Source: Octopus vulgaris
Lineage: Eukaryota
Assembly: GCA_951406725.2 (NCBI GenBank)
Contig: OX597828.1
Location: forward strand, 49,786,001-49,850,000
Length of the DNA stretch: 64,000 nucleotides
Direction of reading: 5' to 3'
Made by a program: the position numbers and the translations under genes. The notes beneath the pieces are model-generated. The model was given only the letters and a program-made list of their open reading frames with translations. It had not been told where the DNA came from and ran no database searches. How positions within the stretch are numbered: the stretch's first letter is position 1; each line of letters begins with the position of its first letter. Below are positions 1 through 16,213 of the stretch, piece by piece.

Positions 1-1269
1 TTTATAATTGTACTTATGTCTAATGAGTCCTCATTACCCCCAAGAATTTCATTTTTACTCCACTTGGGGTAATTTACCCCTGTTCACCAACCCCTGCTCT
101 ATGGATTCTCACAGAGATAGCTGTTAGTTCAGTGGTATCATGAGCAAGAGAACTATAACAACATGCCACATCACTTCCTGTAGGGATTCAAAATCAAAGC
201 CCCTACCTATATTGATGCACAACTGGGCATGGTAGTTAAGCCCTGGGTCATGTTCCAACAAGACTCTACTCCCCACATGGCCCCTGCAACCCAGGAATAA
301 ATTAGCTGAGAATTTTCACTTGTTTTACTCCCAACTCTTGTCTGGACCATTATATCTGGGGTACAATCGTTGAGAGGGAGACAAACCACAATATAAGGAC
401 TGCTGAAGGCTGCCATTGTAGACACAATGGGCAACAGGGATTAGAATCCCTATTCTGGCACAGAGCCACTTCCATGGTCACATCAAGATTGAGGATGGTT
501 TTACTGAATAACTTTTGTTTTTTAGATACCAAGGGGAATGTGTACTTTTCTTCAGTCTTTTTTTCCCTAATTACTTGTTGTACACACACACACACTCAAT
601 AGTGTGAAATGCAGTTAAACAAAAGAAACTATTAAATACTGATAGGTAGATTGATTATCATAGATATACACACATACACATACATCATGCCCTCTCATCT
701 CTCTGACACTCTCTCTCTCCTGTAGAACTCAATTACTTGTGCAATTAATCTCTTGGTTACACTGTCCTTAATGAGCTGAGATAACATAGTCAAGACTCTC
801 TAGATTTGTGGGACACAAAGCAACGACTTGTGTTGATGGCATGATAAAATGCATGTGGTAAACTCTAAGTGATTGGCAAATGGATTGAGGAAATACAGAG
901 TCAAGTGGACCCCTTTAGTTTGGCTAAGAACATAATATAAGTAATGTCTCTAGTGCTGGTGCCATACAAAAATAAGTATACTCTGTAAAGAGGCAGATAT
1001 TCAGAAAAGTATCCAGGTATATAGAAACCATGCTAAAAAGGGGATGCGTTGAGGTGTGCCACCTAAGAAAGTACTAACATGAAATAAGAACTGGCTTGGA
1101 TCAAGGACAACCAATCCAGCCCAAGGGGTCAGCAGGGGAAGTGGTTGTTGTATCACACATCCAGCAGATCTTAGCTTACTTTTCTTGAACCTCTCAGAGT
1201 TACCCACATGAGACTGATATATAATCTCATTATTCAGGCATTGTGAATAATGAGACCATAACCTGTGGC

Positions 1270-1845
1270 CTATGCCAGGAGCGTAACCAGCCCGCTTATG
1301 CGTACCTTTTCCTTCTTTGGTCACTAAACTCTGCTTGCAAAGACCTGTTGAGGCAAGTGAAATCAAAATCATTTCAATGACTGGCATTCGTGCTAGTGGG
1401 GTGCAAAGAGTACCATACAAATGTGATCGTTGACAGAGCGGCTATTCGAGTATGATCGTTACCAGCGTCGAATTACTGGCACTCATGCCTGTGCTAGTAG
1501 GGTACCAAGAGCACCATCCGAGTGTGATCGTTGCCAGAGCAGCCAACTGGCTTCCGTACCCATGGCACCATTCGAGTGTGATCGTTACCAACATCGCTCC
1601 ACTGGCACGTGTAAAAAGATTCAAGCGAGGTCATTGCCAGTACCACCTGACTGGCCCCTGTGCCAGCGGCACGTAAAATGCACCCACTATACTCTCGGAG
1701 TGGTTGGCGTTAGGAAGGGCATCCAGCTGTAGAAACTCTGCCAGATCAAGGTTGGAGTCTGGTGCAGCCATCTGGTTCGCCAGCCCACAGTCAAAAATCG
1801 TCCAACCCATGCTAGCATGGAAAGTGGACGTTAAACGATGATGAT
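1270..1845 (+). mobile_element. (ATG)n-tailed retroposon 3' end, family C, with internal tandem modules
   Basis: GTTGGCGTTAGGAAGGGCATCCAGCTGTAGAAAC core and CCATGCTAGCATGGAAA...GATGATGATG tail. Confidence 0.8.
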
Positions 1846-3835
1846 GTGATAGGAGAGAGGCACTAATAGCAACTATTTCTCATAGGTTATGAAATCATGT
1901 AGAAACCTCCCCGTTGGCTTGATGATAATTGGTAGTGAGACCCAAGTTGTTCAATGCTGACATTCAAAGACCTGTGCCTTAAGCATGAAACGAACATTAC
2001 ATATTCAGTAAATCACATCCATTTCTCTCTCATCTCAACAGATCTTCCACATCCAATACTCCATGTTCAAGCAAATCATACTCACCCCATTCACCCACAG
2101 ATCTTCCACATTGAATGACTCGTGTCTCACTACCATGTAGCATCAAGCTAACAAGGAAGTTTCTACATGATCTCTTAACCTACAGGAAATAGCAGCCATA
2201 TCTCCCTCAAATCACACCACATTTGGATAATGTAGTTGTACTTGCTCTCCCTCTCTCTTCTTCACCTGCAATTACTGCCTATCTCCCATCACAATGCCTG
2301 AATGATGAGGGATTACATCAGAACTCTTTATATCCAATGCATTTCACCGTTTACCCGACTCAGCTGCTTGCCACCACATCCTCTCTCACCCAAATTACTC
2401 TTTTACTGACATTCACCACTTTTACCATTGCCAATTCAACTTTCTATCACTTGCACACACACACACTCTCTCTCTCTCTCTCTCTCTTACTACTAATCAT
2501 GTAGTTGCCATTAGTGTGTCTCTTCCATAACCTTCTGCCATTACACACCTCATCATTCCTCTAGCACTATCTCTCCCATTTCTCCATTCCACCTTAAATC
2601 ATCTTTTGCAACTGCCCTATTTTTTCTATCCATTCTCTTGGTCATGTTGAAGACAACATTAAGCAGCAAAGATACTTTTGTCAGACAAAGCAACCTCATG
2701 TGCTGGTGCCACATTAATATGCACCCAGTAACTCTGTGCAGTGGTTGGTTACAACAGATACCAATGGACGATTGAGAAGCCTTTAGTCTTACAGAGGACA
2801 TGATATCCCTCTAATGCTGGTGCCACATAAAAATGCACTCGGTACACTCTGCAAAATGGTTGATGTTAGAAAGAGTATCATCCAGAAGCCATCATAATTT
2901 TAATGTCCACTTTTCCATGCTTGTTTGCGTTAAAATTTAAGACAGATTTTCTACAGTCAGATGCCCTTCTAGTCACGAACCTCAACCGGTTTCTAAGCAT
3001 TGGAAATGAATGACACTGCTTCTATGACAGACACATTTACAACCAACACACGATGTCATGACAAGGAGGCATACACATGGAAGCCTTTTTTCAGTTTCCA
3101 TCCACCAAATCTACTGCAAGGCTTTGATAGACCTCGGACTGTAGTAGAAGACACTTCCCCCAATGTGCCATGCAGTGGGATTGAACCCAAAACCATATGG
3201 TTGAGAAACAATCCTCTTAACCACACAGCCATGTCTGCACCTAAACTATCCCAAAATAAAATGTACAAAACAAGACGTCATCCCTCGACCACACCTAAAA
3301 GGAGAACAAGATTGAAAAAGAACTTTTAACAGATCACGATATCCAGCTGAATCAATGGAAAGCAGATGTAAGCTAACAATTATGATGATGGCCATGGGAG
3401 GAAGGTCTTTGATCCAAGTTAACCTAAGTTTACTTCATATGGTCAACCTCTTACAGAGAACACACTTTAAGGTCAAAACAAATAAGTCCTGAAACTTCAA
3501 TCCTTTCCTTACTCTCCCTACTATAGCATCATTACAATCACCCCCCAACATCAATAACAATGCCAGTGATTTATTCTCTAAAATACACTAATATTTCATA
3601 CCCACTCCTATACAATATTGCACTCCAGTCAATGATTTTTAATCACTACTTTAATAAGTAAAGTTAAGTGTATGCTTCACTGAAGAGATCTAACAAGACC
3701 AGAACATGTTCAGAGTGGTCTACTACACTTGTCAAAATTCAAATAGTGTTTATCATGGAATTAAAACTGTCATTTCCTTATGACTTTATCACAACATGAT
3801 TTATTTCTGATCACTTTTTTGAATAAGTTAACACA

Positions 3836-4220
3836 GGCGCAGGAGTGGCTGTGTGGTAAGTAGCTTGTTTACCAACCACATGGTTCTGGGTTCAGTCCCA
3901 CTGCGTGGCACCTTGGGCAAGTGTCTTCTACTAGGGCCTCAGGCCGACCAAAGCCTTGTGAGTGGATTTGGTAGATGGAAACTGAAACAAGCCTGTCATA
4001 TATATGTATGTATGTGTGTGTGTGTGTTTGTGTTTGTCCCCCTAGCATTGCTTGACAACTGATGGTGGTGTGTTTATGTCCCTGTCACTTAGCGGTTCGG
4101 CAAAAGAGACCGATAGAAAAAGTACTGGGCTTACAAAGAATAAGTCCCGGGGTCGAGTTGCTCGATTAAAGGCGCTGCTCCAGCATGGCTGCAGTCAAAT
4201 GACTGAAACAAGTAAAAAAA
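3836..4220 (+). mobile_element. tRNA-derived SINE, family A
   Basis: Head GGCGCAGGAGTGGCTGTGTGGTAAG (A box) and GGTTCAGTCCC (B box), internal (TA/TG)n, tail GACTGAAACAAGTAAAA; multiple copies in the window. Confidence 0.85.
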
Positions 4221-5409
4221 ATTTGGCAGAGTTGAGAAGGACATCCCATCCATAGAAACCATGCTAAAACAAAGAATGGACCCTGGTGCAGCTCTCCACC
4301 TTGGCCGCTCCAGTCAAACTGTCCAATCCATGCCAGCATAGAAAATGGACATTAAATGATGATGATGATGCTACAATGAGTTCAAATCAGATGAGAACAA
4401 CTTTGCCTTTCAGTACCAATCCAAGACAGGAGAATGAAGGAACTGTAAGGATGTCGGACCATATATCTTGTAGCATTTGTTTTGAGTTCAAATTTCACTT
4501 TGGCCTAGATCGGAACATATTAAACTCACCACCTGGTTTAACACCACCACGAGGAAATGTACAAGTTATAAGCACTATGTTGTTACTCATTGCAATGCTG
4601 CAGGTAAAAATAGTTGTTAATCATGAACATGCCTTCATAAATTGCTCAAAGTAAAAGTCTTTTTTCTTTATTAAAGTCTGTGTTGCTTGTCTATATGTTG
4701 AAAAACATACAGAAACATATATACACACAAACAATAAAAAAAATACTATATATATTTATATACTCATAATGTTGCATTGTGTTGACAGACTTGCACTTAC
4801 AATTCCTACATTTTTAATCAAAACCTGTTAGTTACTAAGGTGACAACACTACCTATTCATCTATCTCTCAACAATAACCTTTTCCCCTCTCTACATAGAT
4901 GTTGTTATGGAGAGGGAGAGTTCAGCTTGTCTTTTATAATACAAGATTTGGGGTCAGTCTTGCAGCCCCTATTAAAGAATCATGGGCACTATTTCCTCTC
5001 ACCCCAAAAGGAAAAAAAAAAACAGTGGTACCCAAAGTTTTATAACCCAGTTTCTCTGAAACTGAGAATGGTACGGTTCCTCATGAACCTTTGCAGGAAG
5101 AACATAGGCATTTAGGAAATTCCAAATATTCTTGGAAGAATTTGGTATAGTGGTTAGCATAGGGCTTTGGATGTGCACACACGTTAAGTGATAAGTAACT
5201 TCAGAACACCTGAATGGTCATGGCTGGAGAGCAGCCAGCTCTGAGTAAAAGGGCAGTGATGCTAGATGAAGACATAAGGGTTTCTACACATACTAAAACT
5301 TAGACACCATATGTAATTGGAAGGATTGCTGCCGTGTTTTTTTGATGCCATAAAAATTTCATGCCTTCCATTACTAAAACTCCAATGGAATGTAACTTGC
5401 TCAGACTGG

Positions 5410-5655
5410 ACTGCATAAACTTTTAAATAAGAACCTAAACTGCAGCAGGTTCATATTTAAACTGGCCAAAATATTCTACCTGTTTTGCGTTCAAATCAGC
5501 AAGACCTGGTCTCTCACGGCTACTCTATAATGTCATTCTAAAAATAAGCCATCTCATCACTGAGATCTCATAGCTACGAGATAATGCATGATTAATTCAA
5601 AACAATGTGAATAAATAAGCATTACATTTGACAGAATAATCTGAATTCTAAAAGG
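5410..5655. mobile_element. piggyBac-like MITE, inverted and degenerate
   Basis: Reverse-complement similarity to 38288-38508; ends ctaaaagg|ttaa. Confidence 0.6.
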
Positions 5656-6143
5656 TTAAAAGGTTTGGGTTGTACAACCCCCAAAATGATTACAAAACAT
5701 TCCCTGTAACTATCTACGTATAGGTCTCCCAAACATTCCAGATTTGTCATTTGCCAAGGGATACAAAAGCAAAACAACTTCCAACAGTTTGCTGGTTCCC
5801 AAACTACAAATGCCAATCATTGTCATTCAACATCCATTGTCCATGTTGGCAAGATGGAGAGCTGCACTGGACTCCAGACTGATTTGGCATGGTTTCTACA
5901 ACTGGATGCCCTTCCTAACACCAACCACTTTACAGAATGTACTGGGTGATTTGTTCAATGGACCCTAATCCCTGCATTGCAAATTTTAATTATGTACCAT
6001 AGATGCCCCTCCATTTACCAACCAACACTTTTTAGAAATAGCACAAATACCCCACACTATACTGTATTATATTGTATTTGTTTCATTAGTAAGACACTGA
6101 AGTCTCACTGACTCAGCCTACTTCCTTATAAATAGATATCATA

Positions 6144-6982
6144 TGAGATGATATCAAAAAGTTCCTGGACTAGTCATGTTTAATAAAAAAAATAACTTAT
6201 TTACCTCAGATTTAACACTATCTCCTTCAAAATAGTCACCTTGTGCAGTGATACATCGGTTCCAGCATTCCTGCCACTTTTGGAATCTGGTCTGGAAAGC
6301 ATTTTCCACAAGCAAATCAAAGACCTTCGGCAATTCGCTCTGGAACTTGACAACCATTGAGCTGCCTTTTCATTTTGGGAAAGAGGTGGAAGTCTGCAGG
6401 TGCTAAATCTGGCGAATGGGCTCGGTGCGGAAGTGATACCATGCTGGTTTTGGCGAGAAACCCATGAGTGAGGAGAGCTCAATGAAAGGGTCCATTGTCA
6501 TTGCAAAGAATACAACACTCAATTGGCGATCTGGCCGGGGTGGGTGTGGAAAATTCTCAATGGACTGTGGACGTCGAAAAAAAAAGACGAGCAGGCTCTT
6601 GATTGAGCTGCGGCCCTGTCATGCCTTCTTCGGTTGTGGAGATGAAGGCCTCTTACATTGCAATGACTGCTGCTTCATTTCATGGTCACACCCGTAGATC
6701 CAACTCTCATCACCGGTAATAATCCTTGGCATGAAGGACGGGTCATCAGCAGCACACCGACAAGAGATCTTGATAGACTTTAATGGGATGTCCATGACAA
6801 AATCTCAGACTACAGCATACACATGATTGCAAAGACACAAATTTCACAACTTGCAAAGAAAACACAGCGATGTCACTTGGCACACTTCCTCATGAACATC
6901 ACTGCTACTGTGCATGCAACCATGTGCTGTCACCTGTTGGTGTGCTACTGAATTAGTTCAGAAACTTTTCAATACCATCTCG
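6144..6982 (-). mobile_element. Degenerate, internally deleted mariner transposon
   Basis: About 29-bp imperfect TIRs (tgagatgatatcaaaaagttcctggacta / tagttcagaaacttttcaataccatctcg); transposase remnants SPDLAPADFHLFPKM and FQKWQECWNRCITAQGDYFEGD. Confidence 0.88.
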
Positions 6983-7029
6983 TTTATATAGCTTATTGTT
7001 GTGGCAGCAGAAAGGAGTGCTACCAGAAG

Positions 7030-8270
7030 GATGAAAGTCAGCAATGAATATAACATTGAAGGTAGGAGTTCACCAGGGCTTGGCTCTTAGTCCCCTTTTA
7101 TTTACCATAGTTCTCCAACCCATGACAGGGGAGTTTAAGAAGGGTTGCCTGTGGGAGCTCCTCTATACTGATGACCTTGTTCTTATAGATGAATCTATAG
7201 AACTAGAAAAGCACTTGGAGAGTGCAGACCTCCACAAAGCAGCTCATTTCCACCAGTTTACATGCATGCTGAGAATCGCCCAATTTCCCAAACCAAAGCC
7301 AGCAAAAACATAACCTCCTTGGCGGGGGGTAAAAAAAAAGCCCCTTTAAAAACAGGAATCATCTGAAGCAGTTCACAACCACCACCGTCATCAGCAACAT
7401 CGTCATTGCTTCCACTTCAACCACATACACCGCCATCAATGTTATCACAACGGTTACCTTGACAGTCACTTTTACCACCACAACCAGTATAACCACTGCA
7501 ATGCCATCATCACACAACTAACACTATCATCAACACCACAAGACCACCATCATACTGCTCCTGTCGCCATTATAACCACTGATGCTATTTTATCCTCCTC
7601 CCATACTTATCTCAACCATCATCATCATCAACACTGCCTCTAAACAGCAACGCCACCATAGGTTATGTGGAAACGATGAACATGTTTTCAAGGGAGATAA
7701 TCAAAGAATGTAACATAGTAAATACAGCAAGTGAAAAATCCTTCAAGAATCCATAAAAATTCCCAGATCACTACCAAATTTTCATCATCTGTTCCTTGTG
7801 TCACTACCAACTTTTCCTGCAAGTTTTATCAAATACCATTCACAAATTTTTGAGTTATTTTGTACAAAGATGGACAAACCAAGGCCAATGAAAATATAAC
7901 CGCCTTCCTTGGCGGAGGTAATTAGAGAAGAAATTCAAGGAGTGGAAGTAAAGCCTAGAATCAATGAGCTTTGTGAGCAACAAAAGGCTTCTTCTCACAG
8001 TGAAATACAGATTGTATGATGGCTATACACAGACAGCTACACTACAAGGCAGCGAAACAAGCTTCAAAGAAATGAAGCTAGCATGTTCCCCCTGGATGTA
8101 CAATGTCAGTGTGCACTTTTAACAACAAAGTGTGAGTTGAGAGAAAAACAGGGTATGAGAGGCATCAGATGTAGTGTGCAAGAAAGAAGACTGTGCTTGT
8201 ATGGTCATGTAAATAATGCATAACGATGACAACAGCTGCATAACAAAGCAATGATTGCAAGTGGTGAAAA
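7030..8270 (+). mobile_element. Degenerate RTE LINE fragment split by an insertion (about 7201-7923)
   Basis: VGVHQGLALSPLLF...LLYTDDLVL...ELEK, resuming at 7922 as LEKKFKEWK*SLES. Confidence 0.75.
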
Positions 8271-9194
8271 ATGACCCCTAAATTTTGAGCCTCACAGAGG
8301 AGATGACGAAGGACTGAGACACAATTGGGATTTGTGATGCTAGAGAAAACCCATCCAAGTAAAATCGAGGCCCTAAAGGTATGCCTGTGCACCTGTACAC
8401 AACCTATCCCCAACAAATCATCTTCCTAACACCCGCTTATTCCACCCATGTTCACCATTCACTGCATTCCCCTCTCCCTCCCCTTAACTTACCTGCACAT
8501 AATCCATCCCTGAAAAGTCTCTTCCACTCCCACAATGTATGTTCCTAACACCCCTTCCCACCACATGTGTTTACTCTCTGCATACCCCCCCCCCCCCACT
8601 TTCCTTTCTCTCGCTCACCTTATCCAATCGCTTAAACCACTTCACTTTTATACACCTCCCTGCAACTTGAGGGCAGACTCCTACAACAAGACACCTGCTT
8701 CTGTTCCTCTATCATACTCACCACTGCACAAAGTCACCTCCTCCAATACTAGAACCCTTACTTAGCTAAGGAGTCATGTCTTGCAAATTACTTGGCCTCA
8801 CTGGTGCTACATGAAAATGCACCCAGTACACTCTGTAGAATGGTTAGCATTAGGGAGCGCATCCAGCCACAGAAACCATGCCAAAACAGACAGTAGAGCA
8901 CTACACAGTCTACTGGCTTGCGAGCTCTCATCAAACTGTCCAATCCATGCCAGCATGGAAGGAGAACATTGAATGATTCAATTAGCATTCAATGCAGGGA
9001 TTTATTCAGTCAATAGGTCCCCTCTTTTGTTATATTACTGAGAAAGACCAAATCTTGGGTGGGACTTCAACAGATTCCTGGTACCCCCAATACATACTAC
9101 TGGCTCATTAAGAAAATTGATAATTATAAAAACAAACAAGATCACATTAAATAGAAACAAAATTTTCCCAGTGTTTTAAGAGAGAATTTGTCAT

Positions 9195-9200
9195 TTTATT
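9195..9200 (-). terminator. Candidate distal poly(A) signal of the U1A/SNF gene (a proximal AATAAA lies at 9465-9470)
   Basis: AATAAA on minus followed by U/GU-rich sequence at about 9165-9125. Confidence 0.5.
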
Positions 9201-9382
9201 GTCATTCTCTTATTTATATTTCAATATAAAAGAAAAATAAACAAATATCTCAGTTGGAAAAAAACGAACAAACAAAAACTATGAAACTGAAAGGAAGAAA
9301 TCTGTCAATGAGTTTTGGTAAGAATATTGTGAATTAGCTTCACCCCCACCACCCACCAAAATGAAGAATGTAAAATGAGAAT

Positions 9383-9410
9383 CCACCGTCGGATGGTGCA
9401 ATGACGATGG
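9383..9410 (-). promoter_or_regulatory. U1 snRNA stem-loop II-like hairpin (U1A/SNF binding site) in the U1A/SNF 3' UTR
   Basis: mRNA sense CCAUCGUC-AUUGCACCAUCC-GACGGUGG: 8-bp stem closed by C-G, loop begins with the U1A heptamer AUUGCAC. Confidence 0.75.
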
Positions 9411-9534
9411 CATTAATGCTGCTTACCATTCCATCTGGTAGCAAAGTTGTGCCGAATTTGATGGTTTATTTTGTAAGTTTTACCGAAATGCACCAAATCA
9501 CTTTCATCATATTTTTACTGTCTCCTTCCTTGTC

Positions 9535-9694
9535 TTACTTCTTAGCAAATGTGATTTTCATTGCATTGTTTGGTGTAATCTTGAAGCCTTGAAGTGCATC
9601 CTTTGCAGCACCAGCTTGCATTTCATTTTCAAATTCAACAAATGCAATATCATGTCGACCAGGCACCAAACGAACCTCTTTGAAACCAGGAAAT
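9535..9694 (-). CDS. SNRPA: U1A/SNF coding exon 6 (end of RRM2, stop)
   Basis: [55 protein letters not shown]. Confidence 0.96.
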
Positions 9695-12600
9695 CTAAAA
9701 GAAGAAAGGAAAAAAACCCATTAAAAAATCACTAGATAACATAGCTAGATAGCATAGCATATTTTGATAGATTACCCTCAGTAAAAAAAATAATTTTTTT
9801 TTAAAAGCATGGTTTTGTAAGCCACAAAACACTTGCTAATTTCACAATGATGCCACAGTGGTAGCTACTTACAGCAACATAGACTGAGCTGCCAACAGTT
9901 AAGTGTCTTGGTCATACATACAGTGCAGTGAGCTACACCACACTGTGGTAGCTATCGACAGCTAGGTGGACTCTGGACAGTGCACCTAGCTGTATCAATC
10001 TTGGTCATTGACACAGTATAGTAAAGTATACCATACTGTGGTACTTACTGTAAGGCTCATTGGGTTGACGACATTAGTCATAAACACAGTACAGAGTTAC
10101 ACTGCACTGGTACCCGCCTACAGCCAAGTGGACTGGACTGTTGACAGCTAAATGCCATTTCCACAGAAATAACAGAACCTGAGCAACTAATCTAGTCATC
10201 CATCTATTATCCAATCCAATGACCTTCACCTACCTCTTGTCATAAACATAGTACACAGAGCTACAACTAAGTGGACTGGATTGTTGACAGTTAAGTGCCA
10301 TTTCCACAGCAATAACAGGACACGAACAACCAATTAACTGCCTGTCCCATTATCCAATCTGGTGACCTCTTGTCATAAGTGCACAAGTCAAATGCTTCCA
10401 ATGTGAAACTAAGACTTACTGATTGAACAACATTGACAACATCATTTCTGTGGTTTCCTCAGGAAGGTTGGTTAAGAACAGAATTTGGTTAGGAGGCTGT
10501 TCTGGAATGGTATTTGGTGCTGCCAGATTTGTAGAATCTGCAATAGAAAACGGGGTGAATTAGTTACTAAACACAGCTACATGGAAATTTTTAGGCAGCG
10601 AGCTGGCAGAAATGCTTAGCGGTATTTCGTCTACCGCTATGTTCTGAGTTCAAATTCTGTCAAGGTCGACTTTGCCTTTCATCCTTTCGAGGTCGATAAA
10701 TTAAGTACCAGTTACGCACTGGGGTCGATGTAATTAACTTAATCCATTTGCCTGTCCTTGTTTGTCCCCTCTGCGTTTAGCCCTTTGTAGGTAGTAAAGA
10801 AATAGGTATTTCGTTTACTGCTACGTTCTGAGTTCAAATTCTGCCAAGGTCGACTTTGCCTTTCATCCTTTCAGGGTCGATTAAATAAGTACCAGTTACG
10901 CACTGGGGCCGATATAATCGACTTAATCCGTTTGTCCCCTCTGTGTGTAGCCCCTTGTAGGCAGTAAAGAAATACATTGGAATTTTTAAGAGATAAAGAT
11001 AAATACAGTGACAATGCCCAGCAAACAATAACGGGGTGGGGGGTGTTCCTTGTAGAAACTACTGAAATATTCTATTTACTTCCATCAGACATGATCAAAG
11101 ATGCTCTAGCCATGACCATTTACCAGATTTCTGCTGAAATATATTGGGTAGTCCACACTACTCTCTAAGGAGCATAGGGACAATTCCCTGGATTTTCTGG
11201 CGTCTACATTCCTCTCTGGACAGGATGCCGGTCTATCACAGGACTACTTGATTTTACCAGCTGCGTGGAATGGAGCAACAAAGAATGAAGTGTTTTGCCC
11301 CTAAACACAACACAATGCCCAGTCCAGGAACTGAAACCACAATCTTACAATCAGGAGTCCAACACCCTAATCACTAAGCCATTGCCTTCACATTGTTTAA
11401 ATCAATTTTTCTATTTGCTTAAGTCACAAATAAATAATGGATCAACCGATTAGGAACTGTCTTACTGATTCATGATCTCCTTTTTTTTTTTTAAACTACT
11501 TTTGAGACACTTCCAATGGTGATGGGCCTCCTGTATCAGACTGGAGTAATATCTTAAGTCATACCAATGTAAAAAAAACAAGTGGAGCCTGTACTGAAGC
11601 TCAATAAACTGTTGAGATCAATCAGTGCAGGGGGAACCCCATCCTATCTTAGATGTTAGAAGCAAAATCTCATTGGAAATATTATGTAACCCTTCCATCT
11701 ACTTTGTCATGTTTGCATGGGTTAGGGTGAATTCATTGAGGCAGTTTTTTAATGGCCAGGTGCTCTTCTTGTTACCAACACTCACTGGTTTTCATGCAAG
11801 GTAATATTTCCCCATGACCAGACATGCTTTACATGGAAGACTGGAAGCAAACGACATCACTTGTATGATGGTGATACGCATTTACAACCATCACAGGGTG
11901 TTGAGACATGAATACAAACACACACAACAGGCTTCTTTCAGTTTCTACCTACCAATCCACAAAGCTCCTCGGGTCTAGTTGAAGACATTTGCCTAAGGTG
12001 TTACGAAATGAGACTGAGTCCAAAACCAAATGGTTAGGAAGCAAGCTTCTTAACCACAAAGTGATGTCTACTCCTGCCAGTATTGGTTAACAGCCATTAC
12101 TCGGCCGATGGTACATTTATTGTGTTTTAATTGAAAGTTCCAAACAAGGCAAGGAGCCACTCAGAGTAAGGGAATATGAAGGAGAAATTAAGACGAAAGG
12201 AATGAATTTACTTTAGACTTGAAAGAGTTTAGGTCATAAAAATGGGGGAAAATAACGAAATGGAAGTTTGAGAAAAAAATAAAAGCTATGACCACAGGAA
12301 CACTTCCTTATTCAAGGAAAAACAACAACATTTGGATGAAGAAACTGAGTTTCAAGTATTGATAATGATGATGATGATGATTATACAGCATGAATGACAA
12401 ACAATCACTTACTTTGAACAACTGGCTGCTGTAATTGTTGTAGTACAGGTTGTTGAGGAACCGGTTGACCAGCCATTGCTGAAATAGGTTGGATGGGAGG
12501 TGGTACAACACCAGCTGCCTGGGCCCTGGAACAGAAACATAATTTACAATATCAGATCAATTAAAAAATAAAAAGGACATAAAAAGCTGTTTTTATCAAA

Positions 12601-15600
12601 ACATTTTTGTCAATTTTACTTCAATTTTTGTTCAGCCCCAAGTCAATCTTAACTCAGCAGGCGCTTTTAATCAAAGGCGTTCCACCCATGACCTTTTTCT
12701 TTAAAACTGCAAGGTGTGATTAGAAGCAGAATTGATTGCTACTTTTAGTAGATCAAGGAACTATTAAGAGGTTCCTTTGTTGTGTTATTACTTGGTCTAT
12801 ACTGTGAGCTATAACAGCAGTAAAAACAACAAACTGCACAATGGAATTGTACGAGGAACCATGTGGTTGTAGAGCAAAATTCTTAACCACACAACTATTG
12901 CTTAGAGCTGAAGTATTTGTTATCCCTGGAGAGAGAGGGGCGAGCCATCTTTGACGCTGTAAGATAAGATATAATATGAAGTGTAACAGGAGTGGCTACG
13001 TGGTTGTAGCTTGCTTACCAACCACATGGTCCTGAGTTCAGTCCCATTGCGTGGCACCTTGGGCAAGTGTCTTCTACTATAGCCTCAGGCCGACCAAAGC
13101 CTTGTGAGTGGATTTGGTAGACAGAAACTGGAAGAAGCCCGTCATATATAAACATATATATATATGAATATGTGTGCATATGTTTGTCTCCCCAATATCG
13201 CTTGACAACTGATGCTGGTGTGTTTACGCCCTCGTTACTTAGCGGTTCGGCAAAAGAGACCGATAGAATAAGTACTAGGCTTACAAAGAATAAGTCCTAG
13301 GGTTGATTTGTTCAACTAAAAGCGGTGCTCCAGCATGGCCACAGTGAAATGACTGAAACAAGTAAAAGAGCATATATAAACCCTGACTCACTTAGCAGCA
13401 GCGGCAACAGCCTGTTGGGAAGCTCCCTTCTTGCGTTTCTTATTTTCTGGCTCATCATCCTTTTTCTTTTTTGGTCTTTCCATATAGGTACCTTTCATCT
13501 TAGCAATGATATCAGAATCTTTCTTGGAATATTGTATTCTCTGGAAAAACAAATGTAAAAAAAAAAAAACATTAGCCATTTATTATTATTTTTCAAATCA
13601 TCATCACTTAACATCCGCTTTCCTTGCTAGCATGGGTTGGATGATTTGACTGAGGTTTGGTGAACCAGATGGTTGCACCAGACTCCAATCTAATCTGGCA
13701 GAGTTTCTACAGCTGGATGCCCTTCCTAACACCAACCAGTGTGTAGTAAAAATACAAAATCAAGGATACATTCCACTTTGAAAGGACAAGACTAAAGCTA
13801 CATAATAGGATCCTTAGCCTCTTTATTTCAATTAATTTAGAAAAGAGAATTTAGTGAAATGACTTTATCATTCTTAAGTTGGTAGTTGGAAAATAAATGA
13901 TCATAGAATTTTGATGGAATGGTTTTAATTCAGATCCTTTTAAATAGGAAGATTTTTTTTTTATCTCAGAAGTCGGGGTATCATCAGGTTCTTTTGGTAT
14001 CAAAAGAGGACAAATCCTGTATATCAATGATTTCATAAAGAAGGGCAAAACAAAAATTTTGACCAGAGTGTAATTCTATATGTGTATATTGATTTCAAAA
14101 TTTGGCACAGGGCCAGAAATTTCAGGGGAGGGGCATAAGCTGATTATATCAGCCTCTAAAGGGCAAAAGGCAAAGTTGACATTGGTGGAAATTGAACTCA
14201 GAACATAGAGATGAATGAAATGCTGCTGAGTATTTCGTCTGACAGGTTAACAATTCTGCTAGCTCACTGCCTTGTTTATATGTATATGGTGAAGGTACAG
14301 ACATGGCTGTGTGGTTGAAAAGATTGTTTCCCAAACATAGGTGGTCATGGGTTTAGTCCTATTGCATGGTACCTTAGATGTCTTCCAAAGAGTCCCAGGC
14401 TGACCAAAGCCTTGTTGTATAGATTTGGCAGATAGTAACTGAAAGAAGCTGTCGTGTGTGTGTGTACCCCTTGGGTTGACATCCTATGATGATTGCAAAT
14501 GAGTATCACTGTCATATGAGCCATGTCGTTCATATACTGTCCTCCATGGTGATATATTACTTTGCTTAGAAACAGGTGAGGATTGGTACAGGAAGGGCAT
14601 CTGGCTGCATAAAATTTACCTCAGCAAATTCTGCCTGACCCATGCAAGCTTAAAGAACCAGGCACTAATGACGATTAAGAATTGATAAAATCTAGCCACA
14701 TGTAGGAAATACACAAACACACATTAAGGAAACATGAAATGTTGATCTTACCATTGGTTTGTCATAGAACGGGAAACCTTGCATTGACCGGAGAGCATTT
14801 GTGGCACTGTTGATGTCTTTAAAAATTACAAAAGCTTGCCCTCGACATTTCAAAGTTTTTAAGGCAACAATGTCAAGAATTTGGCCGAATTGTGAGAAAA
14901 TTGCATATAAAGATTTCTTTAGTTCTAGAAAAAAAGAAACAGAGTATAATCACAGAGAATTATAGAAATATACATCATCATCATCATCATCGTCGTTTAG
15001 CGTCCGTTTTCCATGCTAGCATGGGAGGATTAAAATATATTGGAGAATAGAAAAGATTGGATGTAGGTCAAAAGCTGACCAGAAGAGAATTAATGCATTC
15101 GAGCTTTGGTGTTGGAGAAGACTTTTACGGATTCCATGGACAGGAGGCTCACCAATGGAGAAGTTCTTAACCAGATCAAGCAGAAATTGTTGCTAGAAGC
15201 TAGGATCACCAAGCACAGATTGACATATTTTGGTCATATTGTGCGGAGAAAAATCCCTGGAGAAGGACATCATGCACGGAATGGTCAGTGGTAAGAGAGG
15301 AAGAGACCAACCAAGAACCCGTTGGCTTGACACCATCAAGAGTGACACGGGAATGGCCATAGCCAATCTGAGAGAAGCGACCCGGGATAGAACTGGCTGG
15401 AGAACACTGATCCACCGAGTAACCGAGAGTCAACTTCGACTGAATGGATAGATAGATAGGTCAAGAGTTAGCAGAAGTAAATTAAGGTTAACAAACATGA
15501 CCAATGCTTAGCACGACAATAAAAGAAATGTTAAAGCAACACAATGTAGAATCATTATTATCCAATGTCTCCCCTTCCATGCTGGCATGGGTTGGGCAGT

Positions 15601-16213
15601 GAGACAGGAGTAGACAAGTGAGAAAACTTGCACCAATCTCTACTGCCTGTTTTAGCATACTTTCTACAGTTGGACGTTCTTAATAATGCCAACCACTTTA
15701 CAGTGTATTGAATGCATTTTGCATGGCACCAGTAGCAGTGACATCACCAAGTAACTTGCAAAACTCCTTGATTATGGGGTAGCAGTATTGAAGGAGATGG
15801 CTTTGTGCCAGGCGATGAGGTTAATAGTATGAAGATGGCCAGAAATAAAAGTCTTGCAGTAGAGGAGATATGTGGCTACTCAGTTGGAGTGAATAAAAGA
15901 GAGAAAGTGAAGATGTGATGGGGCTCCAAATGAATTTATGAAACCAAAAATTCCAGGTTATTACATTAAATACACTTCAAGAGTTGTAGCAATCCATATT
16001 CTGGAATGTTATTACATAATGGGAACTTCTAATCACCAGCCAAATTATTGGACCTGTAAAAGAAATCTAGTTTGTCTTTAGGTCCTTGTTAATCTGTTAC
16101 CATCTGAATGATACTTCACTAAATTCCAAAGCACAGCTAGTCAACTTACCATCTTTCTTAATGCTTTCATTCAAATTGTTAATATAAATTGTGTGGTTTG
16201 GTCTGATGTCCAT
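9535..16213 (-). CDS. SNRPA: U1 snRNP A / U2B'' / SNF family protein, two RRMs, 258 aa; join of 16150-16213, 14752-14924, 13392-13540, 12413-12525, 10420-10537, 9535-9694
   Basis: Spliced translation [56 protein letters not shown]...[47 protein letters not shown]...MKITFAKK*. All introns are GT-AG, phases are consistent, total 777 nt. [10 protein letters not shown] matches the single-copy SNF-type protein. Confidence 0.96.
10420..10537 (-). CDS. SNRPA: U1A/SNF coding exon 5 (start of RRM2)
   Basis: [28 protein letters not shown]; tgcag acceptor, gtaagt donor. Confidence 0.95.
10593..10973 (+). mobile_element. SINE family B (GGTCGACTTTGCCTTTCATCCTTTCGGGGTCGATAAA core, Meta-domain-like) with internal tandem duplication
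   Basis: Core repeated twice; flanks acatggaaattttta and acattggaattttta are TSD-like. Confidence 0.82.
12413..12525 (-). CDS. SNRPA: U1A/SNF coding exon 4 (P/Q-rich linker)
   Basis: [37 protein letters not shown]; phase-2 in, phase-1 out, matching its neighbours. Confidence 0.88.
12985..13370 (+). mobile_element. tRNA-derived SINE, family A
   Basis: High similarity to 3836-4220; ends about 20 nt from the U1A exon 3 donor. Confidence 0.85.
13392..13540 (-). CDS. SNRPA: U1A/SNF coding exon 3 (helix C and basic linker)
   Basis: [29 protein letters not shown]...; ttccag acceptor, gtgagt donor. Confidence 0.95.
14752..14924 (-). CDS. SNRPA: U1A/SNF coding exon 2 (RRM1 core)
   Basis: [57 protein letters not shown]; ttctag acceptor, gtaag donor. 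Confidence 0.96.
15070..15458 (+). mobile_element. RTE (BovB-like) LINE 3' end
   Basis: [19 protein letters not shown]...LTYFGHIVR...[26 protein letters not shown]; short GATA tail. Confidence 0.88.
16150..16213 (-). CDS. SNRPA: U1A/SNF coding exon 1 (exon starts at 16228 with 15 nt of 5' UTR)
   Basis: ATG at 16213; [21 protein letters not shown]; donor G|GTAAG; acceptor ttttccag upstream. Confidence 0.95.

What the first reader, a model, noticed from the sequence alone, without database searches (positions are those of the whole stretch)
9379..9414. U1 snRNA stem-loop II mimic in the 3' UTR of the U1A/SNF gene: candidate invertebrate autoregulatory element
Seen: 125 nt after the stop codon the mRNA reads CCAUCGUC-AUUGCACCAUCC-GACGGUGG. 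This is an 8-bp stem (one U-G), extendable by AAU/AUU past a bulged G, closed by C-G, with AUUGCAC as the first 7 loop bases. Known: this is the geometry RRM1 of U1A/SNF binds in U1 SLII (C-AUUGCACUCC-G), and vertebrate U1A represses its own polyadenylation through the PIE element. PIE uses two internal loops, not one hairpin. Inference: the protein binds its own mRNA here through a structurally different, possibly independently evolved feedback element. I know of no description of this in molluscs but cannot search.
Basis: partly seen in the sequence, partly recalled or inferred. Interest (0 to 1): 0.9.

Follow-up and report, generated by a model that had tools for sequence, protein, structure and literature searches.

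The report
Octopus SNF gene's self-binding splice switch
The octopus gene for the splicing protein SNF (U1A) carries a predicted copy of that protein's RNA docking hairpin just inside a hidden intron in its 3' tail, inferred from an old processed gene copy; similar hairpins crowd the tails of this gene in many other invertebrates, so surplus SNF likely uses them to turn down its own production.

Summary
Confirmed, on the minus strand, and larger than reported. The 8-bp hairpin with AUUGCAC and a C-G closing pair starts 125 nt after the stop of the genome's only intact U1A/U2B''/SNF gene found. (1) A splice donor sits 17 nt upstream (G at 9426). A processed pseudogene joins exon 6 at that point to an exon 11.6 kb downstream, so the hairpin lies inside a 3'UTR intron; RNA contigs from three runs show the unspliced form ending near AATAAA 9200. 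(2) The element is widespread: in 62 clusters of animal orthologues AUUGCAC is the commonest 7-mer after the stop (64 hits vs 4.7 shuffled); 20 of 62 clusters have hairpins (33 vs 0.24), up to five per tail. Likely mechanism: free SNF binds and shifts the transcript from polyadenylation to unproductive 3'UTR splicing. Binding, direction and decay are untested, and donor-hairpin spacing is not enriched across animals (P=0.13). Not a PIE. Not found in ten literature searches; this scan noted analogous hairpins in fungal U1A introns before.

The parts
9383..9410 (-). U1 stem-loop II mimic: 8-bp stem (9410-9403 with 9390-9383), C-G closing pair, 12-nt loop; intron positions +17 to +44
   Evidence: own U1 loop for comparison
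9396..9402 (-). AUUGCAC, the U1A/SNF RRM1 recognition heptamer, first 7 loop bases
   Evidence: recognition rule from PMC2203988 passages
9421..9429 (-). 3'UTR splice donor; first intron base G at 9426, 108 nt after the stop codon; as complementary to this genome's U1 5' end as the gene's coding donors
   Evidence: donor comparison; pseudogene homology ends at 9427; an RNA-type contig of run X14 starts at 9427
9419..9444 (-). Weak predicted stem that pairs the donor with upstream exon sequence (z -1.72, 14 of 200 shuffles as good); prediction only
1..9426 (-). 3'UTR intron, 11,566 nt; runs past the window's start to an acceptor (pyrimidine tract + CAG) before G000:C15:49783860, about 2.1 kb outside the window
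9195..9200 (-). AATAAA inside the intron, the likely main poly(A) signal of the unspliced, productive mRNA
   Evidence: spliced RNA-type contigs end at 9174, 9147 and 9181 (contigs give only a weak hint of ends)
9465..9470 (-). AATAAA upstream of the donor, 65 nt after the stop; use not shown; kept in the pseudogene
9341..9357 (-). G-rich tract predicted to compete with the hairpin for its 5' arm and loop
   Evidence: (141-nt fold)
9535..9694 (-). Coding part of exon 6 (end of RRM2, stop codon at 9537-9535); the exon continues to the donor at 9427 or to the poly(A) site
10420..10537 (-). Coding exon 5
   Evidence: joint 9694-10420 in three runs
12413..12525 (-). Coding exon 4
   Evidence: loose ends at 10537 continue into it
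13392..13540 (-). Coding exon 3 (end of RRM1, basic linker)
14752..14924 (-). Coding exon 2 (RRM1 core)
16150..16213 (-). First coding exon (start codon at 16213)
   Evidence: model protein identical to P0001

Best explanation
The hairpin is likely a docking site for surplus SNF protein on its own pre-mRNA, and it sits just inside a 3'UTR intron inferred from a processed pseudogene, where bound SNF would tip the transcript from productive polyadenylation towards splicing to a distant non-coding exon predicted to trigger decay. Shown: the gene model, the hairpin sequence, the donor and acceptor, a pseudogene that records their joining, the unspliced hairpin-bearing RNA, and strong enrichment of such hairpins in orthologue tails. 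Inferred: (a) SNF RRM1 binds the 12-nt loop; (b) exon 6 is a composite last exon in which the donor at 9426 competes with the poly(A) signal at 9200; (c) SNF bound 17-44 nt into the intron favours the donor, by helping U1 snRNP on or by slowing 3'-end formation; (d) the spliced RNA, with a junction 108 nt after the stop and no A[A/T]TAAA for 1,529 nt after the acceptor, is degraded or poorly translated. This would keep free SNF matched to U1 and U2 snRNA. In other invertebrates the same hairpins, often in arrays, need not act through splicing.
For: Protein: RRM1 keeps Y13, N15, N16, E19, L49, R52, Q54 and F56 of human U1A (alignment; N15, N16, E19 and R52 named as contacts in PMC2203988 passages; the other four recalled). 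U1A needs a stem and a loop of at least 10 nt, and the 3' loop bases make no contacts (PMC4114683 passages). Site type: the own U1 loop begins AUUGCAC and is closed by C-G in 10 of 10 copies read; the own U2 loop has AUUGCAG in 4 of 4. Intron: pseudogene L002 has exons 4|5|6 joined, matches exon 6 at 81% up to exactly 9427, then matches G000:C15:49783851-49783765 at 73% over 100 nt (E 3.3e-9 genome-wide), 9 nt behind a pyrimidine tract + CAG; a spliced model scores 236 against it, an unspliced one 146. In run X14 a contig of depth 26.8 starts at 9427 while the contig continuing into the intron has depth 16.9, the pattern a branch at the donor would give. Orthologues: AUUGCAC 64 hits in 31 of 62 clusters vs 3 antisense and 4.66 shuffled (max 13 in 200); hairpins 33 in 20 of 62 vs 0 and 0.235; 58 of 64 preceded by C. 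2.14 hits/kb in the first 500 nt after the stop vs 0.03/kb upstream in the same loci. Over all 64 hits, unselected, pairs 2-6 of the 10-nt-loop register are paired 0.60 vs 0.43 with swapped partners (max 0.52 in 500). Two gastropod-like tails (L023, L024) share one alignable block of 219 nt, holding three heptamers and a donor 22 nt before the last one, against 24 nt in octopus. Precedent: SRSF1 and SRSF2 appear to autoregulate by splicing 3'UTR introns into NMD targets (PMC6884704 passage).
Against: No binding, knockdown or decay data. The spliced RNA was not seen directly: the acceptor lay outside the stretch laid, none of the 15 loose-end rows shown (7 more not shown) is at 9427, and contigs of X6 and X8 run through the donor unbroken. 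The pseudogene is about 20% diverged and its first 6-9 nt after the junction do not match exon 7, so it shows that the splice happened long ago, not how often it happens now; that it was retroposed at all suggests the isoform was not efficiently destroyed. A strict donor 15-45 nt before the heptamer occurs in 3 of 28 clusters (null mean 1.28, P=0.13; without the window 2 of 27, P=0.33), so the coupling is not general. The 12-nt loop is the rare class (25 loops of 10, 6 of 11, 2 of 12). Octopus RRM1 differs from human at K20 (S) and M51 (C). The hairpin is only 30-70% populated in longer folds. The direction of the effect is assumed from homeostatic logic. Whether molluscs use junction-dependent NMD was not checked.
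Confidence: 0.55

Rival explanations
1. Vertebrate-style nuclear block: SNF on the hairpin and U1 snRNP on the donor-like site together inhibit poly(A) addition at 9200 and the RNA is destroyed in the nucleus; splicing to exon 7 is a rare by-product of read-through.
For: Human U1A has a U1 site that synergises with PIE (Guan 2007, title seen in reference lists; content recalled). The octopus donor is predicted to be paired with upstream sequence, as recalled for the human site. 15 of 37 clusters in the main group carry two or more heptamers, which would supply the two proteins that poly(A) polymerase inhibition needs. Spliced RNA was not seen directly.
Against: Octopus has one site, about 180 nt from the signal; one U1A is not enough in vertebrates (PMC5071671 section 8). 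The human 103-119 inhibitory motif is only loosely matched. A canonical acceptor 11.6 kb away is intact and was used.
Confidence: 0.22
2. Cytoplasmic control: SNF binds the hairpin in the mature unspliced mRNA and lowers its translation or stability; the 3'UTR intron is independent, or even an escape route because splicing removes the hairpin.
For: The hairpin is in the main mature RNA. In orthologues hairpins lie at varied distances from poly(A) signals and mostly without a nearby donor, which suits a position-independent mechanism. Free U1A shuttles to the cytoplasm (PMC5071671 section 8).
Against: Does not explain the hairpin's position 17 nt inside the intron, nor the conserved donor within the gastropod-like block.
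Confidence: 0.13
3. SNF on the hairpin blocks the neighbouring donor, protecting the productive form (buffering or positive feedback).
For: A protein bound from intron +17 could hinder assembly at the donor; the unspliced form dominates in the contigs.
Against: Positive feedback fits poorly with a stoichiometric snRNP subunit; the known U1A loop is negative.
Confidence: 0.07
4. Chance hairpin with no function.
For: Local fold z only about -2; the heptamer is common; 42 of 62 orthologue clusters lack a hairpin by the strict rule.
Against: 64 vs 4.7 heptamers and 33 vs 0.24 hairpins in orthologue tails, strand- and position-specific; no substitution in 9360-9450 in a related organism against 23 in 497 nt of intron 5.
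Confidence: 0.03

Closest known systems
Vertebrate U1A polyadenylation inhibition element (PIE; Rfam U1A_PIE, name recalled)
   Same: AUUGCAC-type U1A site in the 3' tail of the protein's own gene; presumed negative feedback by free protein.
   Different: One terminal-loop hairpin rather than a bipartite two-protein element; about 180 nt from the poly(A) signal rather than just upstream; lies inside a spliced 3'UTR intron; no Rfam match even at E 10; the protein is the single U1A/U2B'' orthologue.
U1 snRNA stem-loop II
   Same: First seven loop bases and C-G closing pair identical to this genome's U1.
   Different: Loop 12 nt instead of 10; stem sequence unrelated; part of a pre-mRNA.
SRSF1 / SRSF2 autoregulation by 3'UTR intron splicing and NMD
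   Same: Intron downstream of the normal stop codon whose removal would create an NMD target (PMC6884704 passage).
   Different: Sensor is an snRNA-mimic hairpin read by a core snRNP protein, not an SR-protein enhancer; competes with an intronic poly(A) signal.
Human U1A 3'UTR 'U1 site' (Guan et al. [quoted passage not shown] 2006)
   Same: A donor-like sequence beside U1A sites; for IgM, a donor competing with an intronic poly(A) site under U1A control (both recalled; titles only seen).
   Different: The human U1 site is recalled as unspliced, whereas the octopus donor has a partner acceptor; IgM switching changes the protein and is not feedback.

Membership tests
U1A/U2B''/SNF protein family | Two RRMs with family-specific RRM1 | tested here: met
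   258-aa model identical to P0001; E 1.5e-98 to human U1A and 7.5e-95 to U2B''
U1A/U2B''/SNF protein family | Single-copy (SNF-type) gene | tested here: met
   Exon 2 finds 1 match and exon 6 finds 2 (gene and pseudogene) in G000; counts are lower bounds
U1 stem-loop II-type U1A site | AUUGCAC at the 5' side of a loop | tested here: met
   9402-9396
U1 stem-loop II-type U1A site | C-G closing pair on a stem, loop of at least 10 nt | tested here: met
   8-bp predicted stem, 12-nt loop; rule from PMC4114683 and PMC2203988 passages; population 0.3-1.0 by context
U1 stem-loop II-type U1A site | Binds RRM1 with high affinity | not testable with these tools
   Needs EMSA/ITC
Vertebrate PIE | Two U1A sites binding two proteins | tested here: not met
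   One AUUG[C/U]AC in the 1.29 kb after the stop; the next is at 8104 without a stem
Vertebrate PIE | Located just upstream of the poly(A) signal | tested here: not met
   Hairpin ends 9383; next AATAAA at 9200
Vertebrate PIE | Match to the Rfam model | tested here: not met
   No PIE match at gathering score or E up to 10
Vertebrate PIE | Poly(A) polymerase inhibitory motif (U1A 103-119) and inhibition of tail addition | tested here: inconclusive
   Octopus has a basic/acidic stretch there, poorly aligned; activity not testable
3'UTR-intron AS-NMD autoregulation | Spliced intron more than 50-55 nt after the stop codon (threshold recalled) | tested here: met
   Donor 108 nt after the stop; junction recorded in pseudogene L002; present-day junction reads not seen
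3'UTR-intron AS-NMD autoregulation | Spliced isoform is an NMD substrate | not testable with these tools
   Needs UPF1 knockdown or translation block
3'UTR-intron AS-NMD autoregulation | The gene's own protein raises the spliced fraction | not testable with these tools
   Needs overexpression or knockdown

The most novel reading that the evidence does not exclude
U1A/SNF self-regulation is far older and more varied than the vertebrate PIE: many invertebrate lineages keep one to five U1 stem-loop II mimics in the SNF tail, and in octopus (perhaps molluscs) the mimic is wired to a 3'UTR intron so that free SNF flips its own message from polyadenylation to splice-and-decay, an snRNA-mimic sensor driving an unproductive splicing switch.
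Probability: 0.45. Interest if true: 0.85.

Novelty: new variant of a known kind. Interest (0 to 1): 0.76.

Why it matters
U1A autoregulation is a textbook circuit described, in the reviews read here, for vertebrates only, through a two-protein element that blocks poly(A) polymerase. This shows that the same protein's binding site is strongly enriched in the tails of its own gene across several invertebrate lineages in a different RNA shape, and that in octopus it sits in a hidden 3'UTR intron. It makes directly testable how a single SNF protein is kept in balance with both U1 and U2 snRNPs, whether PIE is a derived form of an older hairpin array, and how one sensor gets rewired between polyadenylation and splicing outputs.

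Tried and rejected
Plus-strand reading: no stable fold. Wrong-frame translation of exon 6, corrected. Rfam: nothing at gathering score in the window; only two chance matches at E 2.4 and 9.7 in 9000-9600. A 12-nt match between the pseudogene's tail and window 9091-9102 first suggested a short intron; rejected, because the true continuation lies 11.6 kb away. Viral contigs: no relative. Prokaryote genome contigs: 5 loci, 1 used (L100), 4 weak matches dropped. General donor-hairpin spacing across animals: not significant. Exon 7 as part of a neighbouring coding gene: all three frames close within 45 codons and no long frame nearby looked like a host gene by eye (frames not scanned against families). 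No second retrocopy that keeps the hairpin. The tree is a quick one without bootstrap; a 13-row clade with many hairpins has no named member, so no taxon is claimed for it. Literature search matched on taxon words without U1A and was uninformative. Guan 2007, Ma 2006 and Cline 1999 are not held, so what they say about invertebrates or fly snf dosage is unchecked. No complex or structure prediction was run: the question is protein-RNA.

Full report
Observation. The element lies on the minus strand. Stem 9410-9403 pairs with 9390-9383 (8 pairs, one U-G, C-G closing); the 12-nt loop starts with AUUGCAC. It begins 125 nt after the stop codon, which ends at 9535. Folded alone it is modestly better than shuffles (z -1.95 and -2.47); in longer contexts its probability ranges from 0.3 to 1.0 because a G-rich tract at about 9357-9341 competes. 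The heptamer alone is not enriched in the window (6 vs 12.3). No Rfam family matches.

The gene. Six GT-AG coding exons (16213 to 9535) give a 258-aa protein identical to P0001, named U1A of Octopus sinensis by its source, with two RRMs and near-equal similarity to human U1A and U2B''. Searches of the own genome with exons 2 and 6 find only this gene and one decayed copy, so it is the single SNF-type gene as far as these searches reach. RRM1 keeps the residues aligned to human Y13, N15, N16, E19, L49, R52, Q54 and F56, and differs at K20 (S) and M51 (C). The genome's U1 genes carry AUUGCAC in a 10-nt loop closed by C-G (10 of 10 copies read, of 42 matches); its U2 genes carry AUUGCAG (4 of 4 read, of 48). 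The element is thus U1-type. U1A contacts the heptamer and closing pair (PMC2203988, passages) and needs a stem and a loop of at least 10 nt, the last loop bases being contact-free (PMC4114683, passages). Fly SNF binds U1 stem-loop II (PMC5992148, search listing and passages).

A hidden 3'UTR intron. The decayed copy L002 (contig C1) is a 5'-truncated processed pseudogene with exons 4, 5 and 6 joined. Its match to exon 6 (213 of 264 identities) stops at 9427. The next base in the gene starts a GT donor as complementary to this genome's U1 5' end as the coding donors. The pseudogene's continuation has one other match in the 2.8-Gb genome: G000:C15:49783851-49783765, same strand, downstream of the gene (73% over 100 nt, E 3.3e-9), 9 nt behind a pyrimidine tract and CAG. 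A spliced model aligns to the pseudogene with score 236, an unspliced one with 146; the first 6-9 nt after the junction align poorly. So an 11,566-nt intron starts 108 nt after the stop, and the hairpin occupies intron positions +17 to +44. Exon 7 has stops in all frames within 45 codons, an interspersed repeat that the pseudogene lacks at that point and no A[A/T]TAAA until 1,529 nt after the acceptor.

RNA. Four of 24 listed runs were laid on 8950-10560. X6, X8 and X14 carry the exon 5-6 joint and so come from spliced RNA whatever their labels; they cover donor and hairpin and end at 9174, 9147 and 9181, just past AATAAA 9200 (contigs give only a weak hint of ends). The hairpin is therefore in the main mature message. 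In X14 one contig (depth 26.8) starts at 9427 and the contig going on into the intron has depth 16.9; no partner contig is shown. That is what a branch at the donor would give, but it is indirect. X6 and X8 pass the donor unbroken, and the acceptor lay outside the stretch. Run X17 (organism D) has 0 listed substitutions in 9360-9450, 2 in the 360-nt tail and 23 in 497 nt of intron 5; this shows constraint on the whole tail, not on the hairpin specifically. Squid, cuttlefish and nautilus were not examined.

Orthologues. The last exon found 303 relatives in metagenome contigs, of which the best 80 were returned; with L100 and the window they form 62 clusters at 90% nucleotide identity, one representative each, chosen by flank length. 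In up to 1 kb after the stop (42,989 nt) AUUGCAC is the top 7-mer by count (64) and by clusters (31 of 62); antisense 3, shuffles 4.66 (max 13 of 200). Hairpins of 5 or more pairs: 33 in 20 of 62 clusters; antisense 0, shuffles 0.235 (max 2). 58 of 64 hits follow a C. These counts include the window's own copy. Density is 2.14/kb in the first 500 nt, 0.39 in the next 500, 0.11 beyond and 0.03 upstream. Without selecting for structure, only the 10-nt-loop register pairs above swapped-partner controls (0.60 vs 0.43, max 0.52 in 500), with many different pair types. Some tails hold 3-5 copies with different stems (L022, L025, L041, L084). A quick tree places hairpin carriers with gastropods (L024) and a bryozoan (L082) and in clades without a named member; L074 (gastropods) and L030 (decapods) have heptamers without a 5-pair stem. 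Distribution is patchy: grouped afterwards by last-exon signature, 28 of 37 'other' clusters have the heptamer (22 of 24 with at least 400 nt of flank), against 0 of 5 with PNRHD, 1 of 13 with NP.KI, 1 of 4 with KESQ-like and 0 of 2 vertebrate-like (one has only 284 nt).

Is the donor part of the element? L023 and L024 have otherwise unalignable tails but share 219 nt at 85%, with three heptamers and a donor 22 nt before the last, whose loop can also be drawn as 12 nt; L045 has a donor 29 nt before one. Across all clusters this spacing is not enriched (3 of 28, P=0.13; 2 of 27 without the window, P=0.33). The coupling to splicing may be limited to some molluscs, or to octopus.

Mechanism. Best reading (0.55): exon 6 is a composite last exon. 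Cleavage after 9200 gives the short productive message; use of the donor gives a message with a junction 108 nt after the stop and a long tail. Free SNF bound just inside the intron would favour the second path and lower its own output. Binding, direction and decay are inferred. Rivals: nuclear block of polyadenylation with U1 on the donor (0.22), cytoplasmic repression (0.13), protection of the productive form (0.07), chance (0.03).

Comparison. It works like vertebrate U1A feedback but is not a PIE: that element binds two proteins just upstream of the poly(A) signal and one protein is not enough (PMC5071671, section 8 read whole; PMC6884704 and PMC9977717, passages). The output resembles SRSF1/SRSF2 3'UTR-intron splicing (PMC6884704 passage). 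The human U1 site (Guan 2007), IgM regulation (Ma 2006) and fly snf dosage (Cline 1999) were seen as titles only; what I say of them is recalled. PMC2731243 (passages) concerns Sxl, not snf self-regulation.

Novelty. Ten full-text searches of open PMC and bioRxiv (listings and abstract starts seen) showed no description of U1 stem-loop II mimics in invertebrate SNF tails or of a 3'UTR intron in this gene; subscription journals are not covered. This scan's notes record analogous mimics at splice sites in fungal U1A introns and a foraminifer case (unchecked, seen after my reading was formed) and nothing for this protein or for animal tails. Verdict: new variant of a known kind, interest 0.76.

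Noticed in passing
L035, L038, L042, L044, L050, L061, L070, L071, L081 (110-450 nt after the stop): The NP.KI group of orthologues nearly lacks AUUGCAC but shares a different conserved tail block with complementary ends about 100 nt apart and a variant purine-rich heptamer; possibly a diverged regulatory structure.
   Followed up: partly
L036, L052, L085 tails: Three or four heptamers each, predicted in asymmetric internal loops between two stems rather than terminal loops, closer to PIE geometry.
   Followed up: partly
L023:1389-1524, L024:1786-1921: With the heptamers held open, two of them can face each other across one large internal loop that encloses the donor, a possible two-protein platform.
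   Followed up: partly
L082 and L094, about 65 nt after the stop: Hairpins with the U2-type heptamer AUUGCAG on C-G-closed 10-nt loops, alongside U1-type ones; one-mismatch hairpins number 8 sense vs 0 antisense.
   Followed up: no
window 14752-14924, codon 48: Octopus and Argonauta SNF have Cys where human U1A and the other proteins printed have Met51, next to the RNA-contacting Arg.
   Followed up: no
window about 6150-6990, minus strand: Looks by eye like a decayed mariner-type transposase inside the 3'UTR intron (motif recalled); a 34-aa piece gave no Pfam match.
   Followed up: partly
L087 (vertebrate-like U1A), 140 and 222 nt after the stop: Two donor-like 8-of-9 matches in the tail, possibly the described vertebrate U1 site; the contig ends at 284 nt.
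   Followed up: no
G000 C18 48.97-49.21 Mb; C3 20.78-20.84 Mb; C23 43.31-43.32 Mb: Tandem clusters of U1 (C18) and U2 (C3, C23) snRNA genes.
   Followed up: no
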